From a virus (Duplodnaviria > Heunggongvirae > Uroviricota > Caudoviricetes): DNA of 6,214 nt. The stretch spans positions 1 to 6,214 of the IMG/VR virus record IMGVR_UViG_2690316115_000003, one strand, 5' to 3'. A program made the position numbers and the translations under genes. Of the stretch, positions 347 to 6,214 are shown piece after piece. The notes beneath the pieces are model-generated. The model did no database searches, was not told the origin of the DNA, and was given only the letters and a program-made list of their open reading frames with translations. Position 1 is the first letter of the stretch; every line of letters begins with the position of its first letter.

Positions 347-1277
347 ATTAACCGGCTATGTATGGGATGGTTGCGCTGCGTCAGGCATGAAGTTATCCAG
401 CGTGGCAATTATGGCCCGCCTGGCTGATTTCAGTAATGACGAAGGTGTGTGCTGGCCATCAATTGAAACCATTGCCCGCCAGATTGGCGCGGGGATGAGT
501 ACCGTCAGAACGGCTATCGCACGGCTGGAAGCAGAAGGCTGGTTAACGCGTAAGGCGCGTCGCCAGGGTAACCGCAATGCGTCGAATGTTTATCAGCTTA
601 ACGTTGCGAAGCTTCAGGCAGCGGCATTTTCTCAACTGTCAGATTCTGACCCGTCAAAATCTGACGCATCAAAATCTGACCCGTCAAAATTTGATGCGTC
701 GAAATCTGGCAAAAAAGCGGGTTTTCACCCGTCAGAATCTGGCGGGGATCCGTCAGTAAAATCAAAACATGATCCGTCAGATAAAAAACCTTCTCGTCCG
801 GACGCTTCGCAACCGGACACGCAGACGGATGAACAGGATTTTTTAACTCGCCATCCTGATGCGGTTGTATTCAGCCCTAAAAAGCGCCAGTGGGGAACGC
901 AGGATGATTTGACCTGCGCACAGTGGCTCTGGAAAAAAATCATCGCCCTGTACGAGCAGGCCGCCGAATGTGACGGCGAGGTGGTTCGTCCCAAAGAACC
1001 GAACTGGACAGCCTGGGCAAACGAAATTCGCCTGATGTGTGTGCAGGATGGTCGTACTCACAAACAAATCTGCGAGATGTACAGCCGCGTCAGCCGCGAT
1101 CCGTTCTGGTGCCGTAACGTGCTCAGCCCGTCGAAGTTGCGGGAAAAATGGGATGAGCTTTCCCTGCGCTTATCGCCGTCCGTCAGCACGCACACAGAAA
1201 AACGCGAAGACCCGTACTTCAAAGCCAGTTACGACAATGTGGACTACAGCCAGATCCCGGAAGGATTCAGGGGGTGA
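336..1277 (+). CDS. Phage replication initiation protein, O-like (N-terminal winged-helix DNA-binding domain, repeat-rich linker, C-terminal domain); resembles defective-prophage YfdO-type proteins
   Basis: ATG at 336 preceded by AGAGGT. N-terminus [73 protein letters not shown] is a typical winged-helix segment of lambdoid replication initiators. The central region encodes DPSKSD/ASKSD pentapeptide repeats over a DNA iteron array. Gene order (initiator, YfdN-like, methyltransferase) matches the CPS-53-type replication region as I remember it. Confidence 0.75.
   Translation: MSTKLTGYVWDGCAASGMKLSSVAIMARLADFSNDEGVCWPSIETIARQIGAGMSTVRTAIARLEAEGWLTRKARRQGNRNASNVYQLNVAKLQAAAFSQLSDSDPSKSDASKSDPSKFDASKSGKKAGFHPSESGGDPSVKSKHDPSDKKPSRPDASQPDTQTDEQDFLTRHPDAVVFSPKKRQWGTQDDLTCAQWLWKKIIALYEQAAECDGEVVRPKEPNWTAWANEIRLMCVQDGRTHKQICEMYSRVSRDPFWCRNVLSPSKLREKWDELSLRLSPSVSTHTEKREDPYFKASYDNVDYSQIPEGFRG
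638..790 (+). repeat. Iteron-like array inside the O-like gene: about 8 copies of a ~15-bp unit CCGTCA(A/G)AATCTGAC with internal dyad symmetry (GTCA...TGAC); putative phage replication origin
   Basis: Direct reading: five tandem units across 638..710 (GTCAGATTCTGAC, then CCGTCAAAATCTGAC, GCATCAAAATCTGAC, CCGTCAAAATTTGAT, GCGTCGAAATCTGGC), then after an A-tract spacer (GGCAAAAAAGCGGGTTTTCAC) further units at 729..743, 750..764 and 774..788, ending in GATAAAAAACC. In lambda the origin iterons lie inside gene O in the same relative position. Confidence 0.5.
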
Positions 1278-3625: not shown

Positions 3626-4621
3626 GTGACTGTGAGAGCACTACTGACCCCTGAAATTGCCCCGCGTATGGGGATCGTATTGTTCAGACCCGGTTCAGAG
3701 CTGATGCCCCTGTTTATGCAGGGGCGTGTCCTGCTGGAGCCTGAGCCGGAACGTTATTCATCTTTTGCCAGTGGTGCCGTTCCGGCAGCATCACAACCGC
3801 TGGCGGATGATCCTGCCGTTCGGGCCGTGTTCCGCAATGAGGCAGTGATCCGTCGTGCTGGTGGCGTGGAATGTCTTGAAAGCTGGTTACTTCGTGAAAA
3901 AGGTTGCCAGTGGCCTCATTCCGACTGGCACAGCGAGAACATGACCACAATGCGACACGCGCCGGGCGCAATCCGTCTGTGCTGGCACTGCGATAACCAG
4001 CTGCGCGATCAGTTCACGGAACGGCTGGAATCAATGGCAACGGATAACTGTGCCCGCTGGGTGTTGTCTGTTGTGCGTCGGGATCTCGGTTTTGATGACA
4101 GTCACGTTGTGACAATGCCGGAACTGTGCTGGTGGCTGGTTCGTAATGATCTGGCGGATGCCTTACCGGAAAGTGCAGCCCGTAAGGCACTGAGATTACC
4201 GAAGCCTGTTGTGCCGTCTGTCACCCGGGAGAGTGACCTTGTGCCTTCGGTTCCGGCCACCAGCATCATCCAGAATAAAGCGAAAAAGGTGCTGGCGCTG
4301 AAAGTGGATCCGGAGTCGCCGGAGTCTTTTATGTTACGCCCAAAACGTCGCCGCTGGGTTAACGAAAAGTACACGCGCTGGGTTAAGACGCAGCCGTGTG
4401 CATGTTGTGGAAAGCCTGCTGATGATCCCCACCACCTGATAGGCCACGGTCAGGGGGGAATGGGTACAAAAGCGCATGACCTCTTCGTGCTGCCTTTGTG
4501 CAGAAAGCATCACGACGAGCTGCATGCGGATACCGTGGCATTTGAAGAGAAGTATGGCTCCCAGCTGGAGCTGATATTTCGTTTTATCGATCGTGCGCTG
4601 GCAATAGGCGTGCTGGCCTGA
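3626..4621 (+). CDS. DUF968-like prophage protein (YdfU-like) with C-terminal HNH-type Cys/His cluster; putative nuclease
   Basis: GTG at 3626, 2 nt after the upstream stop; an alternative GTG at 3632 sits better behind GAGGTGA, so the start is uncertain by 2 codons. C-terminus QPCACCGKPADDPHHLIGHG...HDLFVLPLCRKHHDELH (about 4395..4524) has Cys and His spacing reminiscent of HNH/His-Me finger nucleases. Position between nin genes and Q is typical for this family. Confidence 0.65.
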   Translation: MTVRALLTPEIAPRMGIVLFRPGSELMPLFMQGRVLLEPEPERYSSFASGAVPAASQPLADDPAVRAVFRNEAVIRRAGGVECLESWLLREKGCQWPHSDWHSENMTTMRHAPGAIRLCWHCDNQLRDQFTERLESMATDNCARWVLSVVRRDLGFDDSHVVTMPELCWWLVRNDLADALPESAARKALRLPKPVVPSVTRESDLVPSVPATSIIQNKAKKVLALKVDPESPESFMLRPKRRRWVNEKYTRWVKTQPCACCGKPADDPHHLIGHGQGGMGTKAHDLFVLPLCRKHHDELHADTVAFEEKYGSQLELIFRFIDRALAIGVLA

Positions 4622-4638
4622 TTTTGTGGAGAAAGTTG

Positions 4639-5010
4639 ATGCGTGATATTCAAATGGTTCTTGAACGTTGGGGGGCATGGGTGGCAAATAATCACGAGGA
4701 TGTGGAATGGTCATCTGTTGCTGCAGGTTTTAAGGGATTAATTCCTTCGAAAGTAAAATCCCGCCCGCAATGTAGCGATGACGATGGCCTGATCATTAGC
4801 TCTGCGATGACAGTTCTTAAGAAAAAGGAACCGTATCAATACGAATTACTGGAAATGTATTATGTGTATGGGGTTACATTACGGGTATTGGGGGTAAAAC
4901 TGGGGATATCACTTAATCAGGTTGTTATCAGACTGCAGAAAGCTGAAGGGTTTATTGACGGTTGTCTGGCAATGTTGGGGGTATCTTTAGAAATTGATTG
5001 TTACATATAG
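4639..5010 (+). CDS. Late-gene antitermination protein Q, short phage-21/QuuD-type (123 aa)
   Basis: ATG at 4639 with GGAG 7 nt upstream (the track begins at 4624). N-terminus MRDIQMVLERWGAWVANNHEDVEWSSVAAGFKGLIPSKVKSRPQC closely matches what I recall of DLP12 QuuD-type Q proteins. Gene order (rusA ... Q) is canonical for lambdoid phages. Confidence 0.75.
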   Translation: MRDIQMVLERWGAWVANNHEDVEWSSVAAGFKGLIPSKVKSRPQCSDDDGLIISSAMTVLKKKEPYQYELLEMYYVYGVTLRVLGVKLGISLNQVVIRLQKAEGFIDGCLAMLGVSLEIDCYI

Positions 5011-5047
5011 TAATAAATTCAATCAAAGTAAATAATCATATTTTATT

Positions 5048-5084
5048 ATAACCTCCTGATGATACCTGTTCATTGGGAGGTTAT
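5048..5084 (+). promoter_or_regulatory. Shine-Dalgarno-sequestering hairpin in the 5' leader of the AT-rich orphan gene
   Basis: AUAACCUCC (5048..5056) is perfectly complementary over 9 bp to GGAGGUUAU (5076..5084), which contains the GGAGG Shine-Dalgarno of the ORF starting at 5086; the loop is 19 nt. Pairing was checked base by base. Confidence 0.4.
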
Positions 5085-5085
5085 T

Positions 5086-5703
5086 ATGGATAAAAATGTA
5101 GAGCATGTATTAGTTGATGCAATTGAAAATAAGCAATCTTTAACAGTCGTTTACTTAGGAGGGAGCCAGCCCGGAACATTAAGGAATATTTCTCCGATTA
5201 GTATAAATGGGGATAAATTGCGGGCAAGATGCCATAGTTCTGGAGCAGTAAAGGTTTTCAATCTTGGGAAAATACAGTTACCCAGTGACTCCTGCGCGGT
5301 ATCTATGCACTATGGAGATTTAAAAGTTAAAGCTTATGAGACGATGCAGAGCGTAAATGACAACTTTCATGCCCTTTATCCTGAAGGACGATGGGGTGTT
5401 GATTTTAATGAGCATCGCTTTGCTTTATTTGATTTTTTTAAAAACGGGAAACGAAAAAAAACGGCATTTATGGCAATTGAGTTCAGGGAAAGAGATGAAG
5501 AGAAAATAATAACAGGTGTAACAATTGATATTGGTATATCTGGAACAGTGATTTCTGAGAAGTCCCGAATCCCAAAAAGACGACCATGGGTAGTGGTTGG
5601 TCCCGAACACGGAGAATACAGTACTTATTCAACTTTGGACAAGGCTGCTACAGCGTTTTTTGAGAGGCTTTCGTTGATAGCATCCGGCCTGGAAGATAAT
5701 TGA
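5086..5703 (+). CDS. Orphan hypothetical protein (205 aa) in an AT-rich cargo block downstream of Q; function unknown
   Basis: ATG at 5086 lies 5 nt after GGGAGG; the in-frame ATG at 5059 has no Shine-Dalgarno. Hand-counted G+C is 19/60 for 5101..5160 versus 32/60 for 2401..2460. The frame stays open for 206 codons despite the AT richness. I recognise no family; the segment VVYLGGSQPGTLRNISPISINGDKLRARCHSSGAVKVFNLGKIQL has spacing loosely reminiscent of WYL/SH3-like beta-barrel domains (weak). Confidence 0.7.
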   Translation: MDKNVEHVLVDAIENKQSLTVVYLGGSQPGTLRNISPISINGDKLRARCHSSGAVKVFNLGKIQLPSDSCAVSMHYGDLKVKAYETMQSVNDNFHALYPEGRWGVDFNEHRFALFDFFKNGKRKKTAFMAIEFRERDEEKIITGVTIDIGISGTVISEKSRIPKRRPWVVVGPEHGEYSTYSTLDKAATAFFERLSLIASGLEDN

Positions 5704-5776
5704 TTTTATGTTTGGTATTCAGAGTTCGCCGTGCTTAAGAAAGTCAAGATTCTAAAAATACTGAATGAGCTACTTG

Positions 5777-5785
5777 TGTTATAAC
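5777..5785 (+). promoter_or_regulatory. Extended -10-like element TGtTATAAC (possible sigma70 promoter; weak -35)
   Basis: TGTTATAAC at 5777..5785 matches TGnTATAAT in 8 of 9 positions. The best -35 at 17-bp spacing (AATACT, 5757..5762) matches only 2 of 6. It sits about 50 nt upstream of a strong terminator, so any transcript would be short (about 65 nt). AT-rich DNA produces such matches by chance. Confidence 0.25.
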
Positions 5786-5833
5786 AAAAATGCTATTAGT
5801 GTGTTAAGAGTGGTTACTTCGCCACACAACTTA

Positions 5834-5858
5834 AACCCGCCACTGAGCGGGTTTTTTG
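5834..5858 (+). terminator. Rho-independent terminator
   Basis: AACCCGC (5834..5840) pairs with GCGGGTT (5847..5853) as a 7-bp stem with 5 G:C pairs and a 6-nt loop CACTGA, followed by a T-run (TTTTTTG). It lies 130 nt after the stop of the orphan gene. Confidence 0.75.
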
Positions 5859-5979
5859 TACCTGTAAACTTGGTGCAGTACAGTAAACACGCTGGTGGTC
5901 GTGAATACTGACTTTTTATCTTGCTGGCTTTTTAGACAAGAGTTATTGGTATGTCATGTTAACCAGAAGGGAAAAAGAC

Positions 5980-6177
5980 ATGCTAAAACAGCAAGATATG
6001 ACCGAAACCGCCAGAGTGGTGTTTAATGAATTGAGCGTCACCGAACCGGCGACAGTCGGGGAGATTGCGCAGAATACTTACCTTTCACGCGAACGCTGCC
6101 AGTTAATACTGACCCAGCTGGTTATGGCGGGTCTGGCAGACTATCAGTTCGGTTGTTACAGACGCCTTCCGCAGTGA
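5980..6177 (+). CDS. Small hypothetical protein (65 aa from ATG 5980; 73 aa from ATG 5956), helix-turn-helix/winged-helix-like
   Basis: Open frame 5956..6177. The second ATG (5980) is preferred because AAGGG lies 8 nt upstream. The segment TVGEIAQNTYLSRERCQLILTQLVMAGLADY has the look of a helix-turn-helix recognition region. G+C returns to about 50%. No family recognised. Confidence 0.45.
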   Translation: MLKQQDMTETARVVFNELSVTEPATVGEIAQNTYLSRERCQLILTQLVMAGLADYQFGCYRRLPQ

Positions 6178-6192
6178 AGGCTTTTTTATTTG
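6164..6192 (+). terminator. Rho-independent terminator overlapping the stop codon of the small HTH-like ORF
   Basis: GCCTTC (6164..6169) pairs with GAAGGC (6176..6181) as a 6-bp stem with loop CGCAGT, followed by TTTTTTATTTG. The TGA stop at 6175..6177 is inside the hairpin. Confidence 0.55.
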
Positions 6193-6214
6193 TGGTAAAT
6201 GGGCGGCTGGTGGG

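What the first reader, a model, noticed from the sequence alone, without database searches (positions are those of the whole stretch)
5048..5088. Perfect 9-bp hairpin that sequesters the Shine-Dalgarno of the orphan gene
AUAACCUCC (5048..5056) pairs without mismatch with GGAGGUUAU (5076..5084), burying the GGAGG ribosome-binding site 5 nt before the ATG at 5086. An anti-Shine-Dalgarno placed this precisely suggests translational control (RNA-thermometer-like, or opened by an upstream event). That would fit a product that is costly or toxic unless triggered.
Basis: seen in the sequence. Interest (0 to 1): 0.45.

Follow-up and report, generated by a model that had tools for sequence, protein, structure and literature searches.

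The report
Ribosome-site-locking hairpin before a prophage gene
A very stable RNA hairpin really does bury the ribosome-binding site of an extra gene carried by an E. coli lambda-like prophage, most likely keeping that gene untranslated on long read-through transcripts; this is a well-known kind of control, and it is not a thermometer.

Summary
The perfect 9-bp pairing (5048-5056 / 5076-5084) is the outer part of a 15-bp stem (5048-5062 / 5070-5084, two G.U pairs, 7-nt loop) of -20 kcal/mol. It buries GGAGG (5076-5080) five nt before the annotated ATG at 5086.

The hairpin belongs to a ~800-bp low-GC cassette (a "moron") inserted between the antiterminator Q gene and the conserved late-regulatory block of a lambdoid prophage.

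Evidence that it matters:
- The folding z-score is -4.5.
- The ribosome-site opening cost (22 kcal/mol) is the highest of 37 neighbouring genes.
- A second cassette lineage, 45% diverged at four-fold sites, keeps the stem (P about 0.001-0.01 under neutral drift). There is no two-sided compensatory change.
- The plus-strand RNA is always about 5 kcal/mol more stable than the minus strand.

The thermometer idea fails: the stem is still -17.8 kcal/mol at 42 C. It is not a canonical terminator and matches no Rfam family. Distant homologues of the gene lack it. The gene is not an orphan: it encodes a WYL-fold protein of a large uncharacterised family.

Best reading: a constitutive translational lock on read-through transcripts. 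It may be bypassed by a promoter whose -10-like hexamer (5044-5049) sits at the stem's base, as in T4 genes e and I-TevI. This is a new member of a known kind, of modest interest.

The parts
4639..5010 (+). Antiterminator Q gene (Q21-type, PF06530). It is the upstream gene whose transcript would read into the hairpin. Its last few codons mark the left junction of the inserted cassette.
   Evidence: Pfam E=1.5e-47. RefSeq start in S88 corresponds to window 4639. Homology with cassette-less phages ends at about 5000.
5000..5800 (+). Low-GC (36-40%) inserted cassette ('moron') made of leader, hairpin and WYL-like gene. It lies between Q and the conserved late-regulatory block.
   Evidence: Composition. 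Alignments with PPyecE_EH1910 and PhiR40_1, which share Q and the region from about 5800 onward but not the middle.
5011..5047 (+). A+U-rich unstructured leader with no ORF. It is a possible standby or S1-binding platform, or a promoter region.
   Evidence: Sequence. Left unpaired in the centroid structures. Lineage B carries an 11-nt insertion here.
5044..5049 (+). Candidate -10 hexamer: TATTAT here, TATAAT in 13 of 49 lineage-A copies, TACAGT in lineage B. T1, A2 and T6 are conserved. A start about 7 nt downstream (5056-5059) would omit the anti-SD arm. This part is hypothetical.
   Evidence: Allele table and alignment. No acceptable -35, so the scan tool does not call it in either lineage. 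5'-end series for the folding consequence.
5048..5062 (+). 5' arm of the hairpin. ACCUCCU (5051-5057) copies the 16S rRNA anti-Shine-Dalgarno sequence.
   Evidence: Only two changes in lineage B (A>G, C>U), and both keep pairing as G.U.
5063..5069 (+). 7-nt loop, UACCUGU here and UACACGU in lineage B.
5070..5084 (+). 3' arm of the hairpin, containing the Shine-Dalgarno GGAGG (5076-5080).
   Evidence: pairing probability 1.000.
5086..5703 (+). Regulated gene of 205 aa: an N-terminal WYL (Sm-like barrel) domain without a helix-turn-helix, then a C-terminal alpha/beta domain of unknown function. Member of phrog_8498.
5836..5857 (+). First canonical intrinsic terminator downstream of Q (CCCGC-6nt-GCGGG plus T6). 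It lies in the block conserved with cassette-less relatives, the presumed late promoter / tR' region, and marks the end of any read-through transcript that is not antiterminated.
   Evidence: Sequence, conservation, terminator score +14.8.

Best explanation
The inverted repeat encodes a cis-acting inhibitory mRNA hairpin that locks the ribosome-binding site of a prophage moron gene.

On any transcript that contains the 5' arm, in particular read-through from the Q / early-right operon, the anti-SD mimic ACCUCCU folds onto GGAGG as soon as the 3' arm is made. The 5' arm is transcribed first, so there is no kinetic window for the ribosome. The resulting 15-bp, -20 kcal/mol stem keeps 30S subunits off, which should lower translation by two to three orders of magnitude. 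It is a constitutive lock, not a temperature sensor.

Productive translation then needs an mRNA that lacks or loses the 5' arm. The most economical route is a promoter belonging to the cassette itself, with its -10-like hexamer at 5044-5049 at the base of the stem. Its transcripts would start near 5056-5059 and leave the SD open, as in phage T4 genes e, soc, 49 and I-TevI.

Shown here: the structure, its stability, its position, its retention in two lineages and its + strand bias. Inferred: that it represses translation. Speculative: the route of relief.
For: Structure and stability:
- 15-bp stem with z = -4.5.
- -20.0 kcal/mol at 37 C, with GGAGG pairing probability 1.000.
- Highest ribosome-site opening energy of 37 genes in related loci.

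Retention:
- Lineage B (72% aa identity, 45% of four-fold sites differ) keeps a -16.5 kcal/mol stem.
- Simulated neutral drift at that divergence keeps such a stem in only 0.14% of trials with all positions free, and 0.8-1.0% with the SD fixed.
- Four of the five stem substitutions preserve pairing.
- Within lineage A, two of three stem polymorphisms strengthen or lengthen the stem.

Strand:
- G.U pairs at different positions in the two lineages make the + strand RNA 5-5.5 kcal/mol more stable than the - strand RNA in lineage A (window allele) and lineage B. This argues for RNA rather than a DNA palindrome.

Context:
- No canonical terminator lies between Q and the gene, so read-through transcripts should reach it.
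- A 5' end at 5056-5059 drops the opening energy from 22 to 6-7 kcal/mol. With the usual thermodynamic translation model (beta about 0.45 per kcal/mol, my own knowledge) that is roughly 10^2-10^3 fold.

Precedent:
- T4 e, soc, 49 and I-TevI use exactly this logic, with a 100-fold effect reported for gene e (review PMC3014915).
Against: - No experimental data on transcripts or translation are available for this locus.
- Formal covariation is nil: there is no pair with changes on both sides, only two diverged lineages exist, and the shuffle control is uninformative.
- The 3' arm is constrained anyway because it is the SD.
- Sequence conservation could reflect DNA-level signals, since -10-like hexamers on both strands overlap the stem base.
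- The proposed internal promoter has no acceptable -35 in lineage A and is below the scan threshold in both lineages.
- Distant homologues of the gene (31-37% aa identity) show no such hairpin, so it is not intrinsic to the gene family.
- One lineage-A allele (three copies) weakens both stem and SD (5080 G>A).
Confidence: 0.55

Rival explanations
1. The conserved element is a DNA-level signal, not an RNA structure. The palindrome would carry promoter or operator elements: a plus-strand -10 at 5044-5049, or a minus-strand promoter TGAACA-16-TATAAT (5072 to 5045) that would make RNA antisense to Q, in the manner of lambda paQ. Alternatively it binds a dimeric regulator. The RNA hairpin would then be a by-product.
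For: - The minus-strand promoter-like site scores 10 of 12 and is the best in 4500-6214.
- The T1, A2 and T6 positions of the plus-strand hexamer are conserved between lineages.
- The 5047 T>A allele makes a perfect TATAAT.
Against: - Promoter-like sites are no more frequent than in shuffles (3 found, 3.8 expected).
- Lineage B has no site on either strand at the same threshold.
- The substitutions create G.U pairs, which keep an RNA helix but break DNA symmetry. The + strand RNA is about 5 kcal/mol more stable than the - strand in both lineages.
- 15-bp arms are much longer than a promoter or an ordinary operator needs.
- The product has no recognisable DNA-binding helix-turn-helix.
Confidence: 0.13
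2. The hairpin is an RNA processing or stability element. Either it is an RNase III site, as in the lambda N leader where cleavage relieves a structure that hinders ribosome binding, or it is a 5'-terminal stem-loop of a cassette transcript starting at about 5043-5049 that protects the mRNA from 5'-end-dependent decay. SD occlusion would be secondary.
For: - The helix is long: 15 bp, 18 bp in the 5047A allele, and up to about 25 bp with the A-U extension 5037-5047 / 5089-5098 in the MFE.
- -10-like hexamers (AATAAT at 5031-5036, CATATT at 5037-5042) would put a 5' end at the stem base (sequence).
- Lambdoid precedent for RNase III control of an SD-proximal hairpin (my own knowledge: Kameyama et al. 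1991).
Against: - The outer A-U helix is absent from the centroid structure.
- 15 bp is short for a typical in vivo RNase III site.
- A double-strand cut about 11 bp from the loop would fall in the SD and inactivate the mRNA rather than activate it.
- No data are available.
Confidence: 0.12
3. The hairpin is a weak intrinsic terminator or attenuator that stops early-operon read-through after Q. The gene, and the late promoter region behind it, would then be transcribed only by antiterminated polymerase.
For: - If the four A-U pairs at the base are counted as tail, the G+C core (5052-5080, -15 kcal/mol) is followed by UUAUUAUG, with 5 U in 8.
- The scan tool also missed the genuine terminator at 5836-5857 for the same stem-extension reason.
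Against: - Terminator score (d'Aubenton-Carafa form, coefficients recalled from memory) is -16 to -38. The two real terminators in the window score +15 and +17.
- The U-tract is interrupted after two U.
- A terminator ending on the start codon would make the gene inexpressible from any upstream promoter without also solving the SD lock.
Confidence: 0.05
4. The hairpin has no selected function. It would be a fortuitous inverted repeat in A+T-rich foreign DNA, carried along in two recently related cassettes.
For: - Only two lineages exist, and there are no two-sided compensatory changes.
- Distant homologues lack it.
- The gene itself decays in about 15% of copies.
Against: - z = -4.5.
- The placement on the SD is exact.
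- Retention has P about 0.001-0.01 under the divergence measured at four-fold sites.
- A stem this stable would affect translation whether or not it was selected.
Confidence: 0.1

Closest known systems
Phage T4 genes e (lysozyme), soc, 49 and I-TevI, and Aeromonas phage Aeh1 mobE: hairpins that sequester the ribosome-binding site on read-through transcripts
   Same: - The SD (and, in the 5047A allele, the AUG) is buried in a local stem.
- The gene lies downstream of an operon that can read into it.
[quoted passage not shown]
- The expected effect is 100-fold or more. The effect for gene e and the overall logic are described in PMC3014915.
   Different: - The T4 promoters are gp55-dependent late promoters (TATAAATA) with mapped 5' ends. 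Here the candidate is an unmapped sigma-70-like hexamer without a -35.
- The host element is a lambdoid prophage cassette, not a T-even phage.
- The stem (15 bp, -20 kcal/mol) is strong, and no transcript data exist.
MS2 coat-gene initiation hairpin (de Smit and van Duin; my own knowledge)
   Same: Translation efficiency is set by the stability of a single hairpin holding the SD and start. This gives the quantitative expectation that stems much beyond about -6 kcal/mol shut initiation down steeply.
   Different: The MS2 hairpin is weak and tuned. This one is far beyond the tunable range, so it acts as a lock rather than a dial.
RNA thermometers (ROSE, fourU, prfA and lcrF types)
   Same: A cis hairpin pairs with the SD in a 5' leader.
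   Different: - Thermometers use short or imperfect stems that melt between 30 and 42 C. This stem loses only about 5 kcal/mol over that range and stays fully paired.
- There is no Rfam match.
Lambda N-leader and cIII mRNA structures controlled by RNase III; rpoS leader opened by the sRNAs DsrA, RprA and ArcZ (my own knowledge)
   Same: An inhibitory leader helix occludes the ribosome site and is relieved by a trans-acting factor.
   Different: No RNase III determinants or complementary sRNA were identified here. The only complementary stretch found upstream (4916-4928, 11 of 13) is too weak to compete.

Membership tests
RNA thermometer | The SD-occluding structure melts within the physiological range (about 30-42 C) | tested here: not met
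   The hairpin is -22.9, -20.0 and -17.8 kcal/mol at 30, 37 and 42 C. GGAGG pairing probability is 1.000 at 30-45 C. The MFE is still the full stem at 60 C.
RNA thermometer | Match to a curated thermometer family (ROSE, FourU, PrfA, cspA and others) | tested here: not met
   Rfam scan of 4600-6214 at E <= 10 gave only sub-threshold chance hits, none to a thermometer family.
T4-type RBS-sequestering hairpin with internal promoter (e, soc, 49, I-TevI, mobE) | The SD and/or start codon are paired in a local stem | tested here: met
   The 5047A allele also pairs the AUG.
T4-type RBS-sequestering hairpin with internal promoter (e, soc, 49, I-TevI, mobE) | Longer transcripts from upstream promoters extend into the gene | tested here: inconclusive
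   No canonical terminator lies between the Q stop (5010) and the gene, so read-through is expected. No transcript data are available.
T4-type RBS-sequestering hairpin with internal promoter (e, soc, 49, I-TevI, mobE) | A promoter lies within or next to the DNA for the 5' arm, so its transcripts lack that arm | tested here: inconclusive
   A -10-like hexamer at 5044-5049 (TATTAT, TATAAT or TACAGT) has its key positions conserved. There is no -35, and the scan does not call it in either lineage. Folding of 5'-truncated RNAs shows the SD would open.
T4-type RBS-sequestering hairpin with internal promoter (e, soc, 49, I-TevI, mobE) | Measured translational repression of the long transcript | not testable with these tools
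   Needs reporter fusions or toeprinting.
Rho-independent (intrinsic) terminator | G+C-rich stem immediately followed by a U-tract | tested here: not met
   The tail after the full stem is UAUGGAUA. The score is -16 to -38, against +15 and +17 for the terminators at 5836-5857 and 6164-6187 (hairpin plus T-run). The scan does not call it.
RNase III processing site | About two turns of dsRNA with permissive proximal and distal box base pairs, and cleavage in vivo | not testable with these tools
   The helix is 15-18 bp and only marginally extendable. Needs a comparison of rnc+ and rnc- hosts.
Type I toxin-antitoxin style inert mRNA | Small hydrophobic toxin ORF with an antisense sRNA and processing-dependent activation | tested here: not met
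   The ORF is a 205-aa soluble WYL-fold protein. No sRNA family hit overlaps the locus.
Lambdoid nut (boxB) or put antitermination RNA | Short 5-bp stem with a GNRA-like pentaloop, or a two-stem put structure, placed after pL or pR | tested here: not met
   This is a 15-bp stem with the 7-nt loop UACCUGU, located after Q.

The most novel reading that the evidence does not exclude
The hairpin and the -10 hexamer embedded at its 5' base form a transcript-isoform gate for a lambdoid moron. The gene is translationally silent on Q / early-operon read-through RNA made during lytic growth. It is translated only from its own promoter, whose start lies inside the 5' arm (expression in the lysogen). The common 5047 T>A allele tunes both sides at once, giving a perfect TATAAT and a longer stem that also covers the AUG. 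This would be the first T4-style 'promoter inside the RBS hairpin' insulator described for a lambdoid prophage accessory gene. It would guard a helix-turn-helix-less WYL protein that may sense single-stranded nucleic acid.
Probability: 0.2. Interest if true: 0.45.

Novelty: new member of a known kind. Interest (0 to 1): 0.3.

Why it matters
If the lock works as inferred, it shows how a foreign gene dropped between Q and the late promoter of a lambdoid prophage is insulated from the strong read-through transcription of the lytic programme. Lambdoid prophages often carry accessory genes after Q, and in lineage-B Stx2 prophages Shiga-toxin genes lie a few kb further downstream. It would also give a simple handle (one stem, one candidate promoter) for finding out when an uncharacterised but widespread WYL-only protein family is made. 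In itself, SD sequestration by a leader hairpin is textbook biology.

Tried and rejected
- Thermometer: rejected by the temperature series.
- Intrinsic terminator: rejected by tail composition and score. The coefficients of the score were recalled from memory, but two true terminators in the window scored positive as controls.
- Known RNA family: the Rfam E-value scan found nothing.
- Translational coupling to Q or to a leader ORF: rejected. The Q stop is 38 nt upstream and the leader has no ATG. The in-frame ATG at 5059 has no SD and is out of frame in lineage B.
- Competing upstream pairing: 4916-4928 matches the 5' arm at only 11 of 13 positions, which is too weak.
- Covariation test: only two diverged lineages exist. 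The search covered protein search, IMG/VR and GTDB locus scans, and exact-pattern scans of viral and metagenome contigs, which returned only alleles A and B plus chance matches. P0003 and P0006 turned out to be damaged copies of A and B. The pair count shows no two-sided change.
- Conservation in distant homologues: 11 loci at 31-37% aa identity have ordinary ribosome sites.
- Mapping PR': the Q21 structural paper gives the architecture but not a usable sequence. I could only place the late-regulatory block by conservation.
- Defence-system assignment of the product: PADLOC gave only weak WYL hits and NCBIfam gave none.

Full report
**1. What is in the sequence**

The finding's coordinates are exact. 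ATAACCTCC (5048-5056) is the reverse complement of GGAGGTTAT (5076-5084). GGAGG (5076-5080) lies five nt before ATG 5086. RefSeq starts the identical gene of E. coli S88 at the same ATG.

The stem runs for 15 bp (5048-5062 with 5070-5084), includes two G.U pairs and closes a 7-nt loop.
- The 71-nt context folds to -23.3 kcal/mol, against -10.95 +/- 2.74 for shuffles (z = -4.5, none of 200 as good).
- The 37-nt hairpin alone is -20.0 kcal/mol.
- A perfect 9-mer inverted repeat is not very rare (0.15 expected in the 800-bp cassette). The whole stem is: it ranks 6th of 4114 sliding windows on both strands despite 33% GC.
- The energy needed to open this ribosome site (22.3 kcal/mol) is the highest of 37 genes in this and four related prophage loci, whose median is about 11.
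- The 5' arm contains ACCUCCU, the sequence of the 16S rRNA anti-Shine-Dalgarno (my own knowledge).

**2. Context**

The window is the early-right / late junction of an E. coli lambdoid prophage. In order it holds:
- an O-like replication gene with iterons;
- a PerC-like gene, Dam, RusA and a KilA-N antirepressor;
- a DUF968/HNH gene;
- a Q21-type antiterminator Q (4639-5010);
- the gene in question (5086-5703);
- a small winged-helix ORF with a terminator.

Seventy-three of 5426 complete E. coli genomes carry at least 80% of 4600-6214. Related phages (PPyecE_EH1910, PhiR40_1 and several Stx2 phages) share Q and the region from about 5800 onward, but not the middle.
- Homology stops in the last codons of Q, at about 5000.
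- It resumes at TGTTAAGAGTGGTTACTTCGCC..., a block that contains the first canonical terminator after Q (5836-5857).

So the hairpin, a 37-nt A+U-rich leader and the gene form a ~800-bp low-GC insert (36-40% GC), i.e. a moron. It sits between Q and what, by the standard Q - PR' - pause element - terminator layout (bioRxiv 10.1101/651190), should be the late-regulatory region. I could not map PR' itself.

No canonical terminator separates Q from the gene. Transcripts that make Q are therefore expected to continue into it.

**3. The gene is not an orphan**

- An exhaustive profile search finds 954 cluster representatives at E <= 1e-3, most of them about 190-205 aa stand-alone proteins.
- The gene belongs to phrog_8498, function unknown.
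- Pfam and PADLOC give weak WYL hits over residues 8-64.
- There is no helix-turn-helix. The C-terminal domain is unassigned.

Nothing here shows toxicity.

**4. Is the hairpin conserved?**

Among 54 further copies fetched, lineage A has four alleles:
- the window sequence (23 copies);
- 5047 T>A (13 copies), which lengthens the helix to 18 bp, now including the AUG, at -23.3 kcal/mol;
- 5074 U>C (6 copies), which turns a G.U pair into G-C, at -22.8 kcal/mol;
- 5080 G>A (3 copies), which weakens both SD and stem, at -13.3 kcal/mol.

A second lineage, B, sits at the same position after Q in 22 genomes, some of them Stx2 prophages. It has 72% aa identity. It differs at five stem positions.
- Four keep pairing: A-U>G.U, C-G>U.G, G.U>G-C and U.G>U-A.
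- One makes an A.G mismatch.
- The resulting stem is -16.5 kcal/mol.

There is no pair with changes on both sides, so formal covariation is absent. However, the two lineages differ at 45% of four-fold degenerate sites (25 of 55; 9 transitions and 16 transversions). When the window hairpin is mutated at that rate and spectrum, a stem of -16.5 kcal/mol or better survives in 0.14% of trials. With the SD held fixed, or with only the 5' arm free, it survives in 0.8-1.0%.

In both lineages the + strand RNA is 5-5.5 kcal/mol more stable than the - strand RNA. This is because G.U pairs sit at different positions in each. That is what selection on a + strand RNA predicts, and it is not what a DNA palindrome predicts.

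Exact-pattern scans of viral and metagenome contigs returned only these alleles plus chance matches. Eleven loci with distant homologues (31-37% aa identity) have ordinary ribosome sites without a local anti-SD stem. The hairpin is therefore a feature of this E. coli cassette, not of the protein family.

**5. What it is not**

- *Thermometer.* The stem is -22.9, -20.0 and -17.8 kcal/mol at 30, 37 and 42 C. GGAGG stays paired with probability 1.000, and the full stem is still the MFE at 60 C.
- *Known RNA family.* Rfam gives no family.
- *Terminator.* After the stem comes UAUGGAUA. Even if the four basal A-U pairs are treated as tail, the U-tract is UUAUUAUG. A d'Aubenton-Carafa-type score (coefficients from memory) is -16 to -38, whereas the two genuine terminators in the window score +15 and +17.
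- *Translational coupling.* The Q stop is 38 nt before the stem and the leader has no ORF. The ATG at 5059 that an ORF finder picks has no SD and is out of frame in lineage B.

**6. How it most likely works**

The 5' arm is transcribed before the SD, so the helix can close as soon as the 3' arm emerges. A -20 kcal/mol local stem is far beyond the range in which ribosomes compete. For the MS2 coat gene, expression falls about ten-fold per 1.4 kcal/mol beyond roughly -6 kcal/mol (my own knowledge). I therefore read it as a constitutive lock on every transcript that includes 5048-5056, above all read-through from Q.

Relief must come from an RNA that lacks the 5' arm.
- Shortening the 5' end in silico leaves the lock intact down to 5052.
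- It opens abruptly at 5054-5059, where the opening energy falls from 22 to 6-7 kcal/mol.
- With beta about 0.45 per kcal/mol this predicts roughly a 10^2-10^3-fold difference (inference).

A -10-like hexamer sits exactly at the base of the stem, at 5044-5049. It reads TATTAT here, TATAAT in the 13-copy allele and TACAGT in lineage B (preceded there by TGAACA and 16 nt). The critical T1, A2 and T6 positions are kept. A start 7-9 nt downstream would fall at 5056-5058.

This is the design of T4 genes e, soc, 49 and I-TevI. In those genes, early read-through transcripts are silenced by an SD hairpin, and late promoters placed in the DNA for the 5' strand give translatable mRNA, with a 100-fold effect for gene e (PMC3014915).

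The weak points are these:
- there is no recognisable -35 in lineage A;
- the scan tool does not call the site in either lineage;
- A+T-rich DNA is full of such hexamers.

I give 0.55 to the lock itself, and about 0.2 to this specific route of relief.

**7. Rivals**

- DNA-level promoter or operator, including a 10-of-12 minus-strand promoter-like site (5072 to 5045) that would make anti-Q RNA. It is not conserved at threshold in lineage B and is contradicted by the strand asymmetry.
- RNase III site or 5'-terminal stabiliser. Possible but untestable here.
- Weak attenuator-terminator. Unlikely.
- No function. Unlikely given.

**8. Verdict**

This is a new member of a well-known kind of element. 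Its interest is modest, raised a little by the possible T4-style promoter-in-stem gate and by the uncharacterised WYL-only protein it guards.

Noticed in passing
window 624-746: Five to six 15-nt-period direct repeats (TCAAAATCTGACSCG-like) with nested inverted repeats lie inside the O-like replication gene (336-1277). They look like origin iterons, as in lambda ori inside gene O. They also encode the repetitive SDPSKSDASKS stretch of the protein.
   Followed up: partly
window 5800-5985 (terminator 5836-5857): A block conserved with cassette-less relatives (PPyecE_EH1910, PhiR40_1) contains the intrinsic terminator CCCGC-6nt-GCGGG plus T6. It is presumably the PR' / pause / tR' region served by Q. 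The promoter/terminator scan tool missed this terminator because the upstream AAA pairs with the T-run. PR' itself was not located.
   Followed up: partly
window 5072-5045, minus strand: A promoter-like site TGAACA-16-TATAAT (10 of 12) lies inside the palindrome and points into Q. It could give an anti-Q RNA reminiscent of lambda paQ. Lineage B has only TGAACG-16-TACTGT, which the scan does not call.
   Followed up: partly
loci L038, L004, L066, L055, L056, L065, L071/L072: About 8 of 55 copies of the cassette gene are inactivated independently:
- an IS1-like insertion in the hairpin itself (L038, at window 5065-5076);
- IS insertions in the ORF (L004, L066);
- nonsense mutations (L055, L056);
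- frameshifts (L065, L071/72).
This could be ordinary prophage decay or a sign that the gene is costly.
   Followed up: partly
window 5047 (allele in L006, L024, L029, L030 and others): The T>A polymorphism, in 13 of 49 lineage-A copies, does two things at once. It turns TATTAT (5044-5049) into the consensus -10 TATAAT, and it extends the RNA stem to 18 bp so that the AUG is also paired (-23.3 kcal/mol).
   Followed up: partly
[not shown]
   Followed up: partly
window 4555-4573 and 4597-4617: Two terminator-like hairpins with T-runs sit at the 3' end of the DUF968 gene, immediately upstream of the Q ribosome site (Q starts at ATG 4639 according to RefSeq). This suggests Q, and anything read through from it, needs antitermination, as with lambda tR3/tR4.
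   Followed up: no
window 5980-6177 and 6164-6187: A small ORF (about 65 aa, phrog_331, weak TrmB-like winged helix) is followed by a strong terminator. The unit is conserved after Q in SfV (orf47 plus an annotated terminator), phiP27 and Stx2 phages. Its role is unknown.
   Followed up: no
window 5059-5085: The mechanical ORF list starts the gene at ATG 5059 (adding MIPVHWEVI). That ATG lies in the 5' arm, has no SD and is out of frame in lineage B, so it is an ORF-calling artefact.
   Followed up: yes
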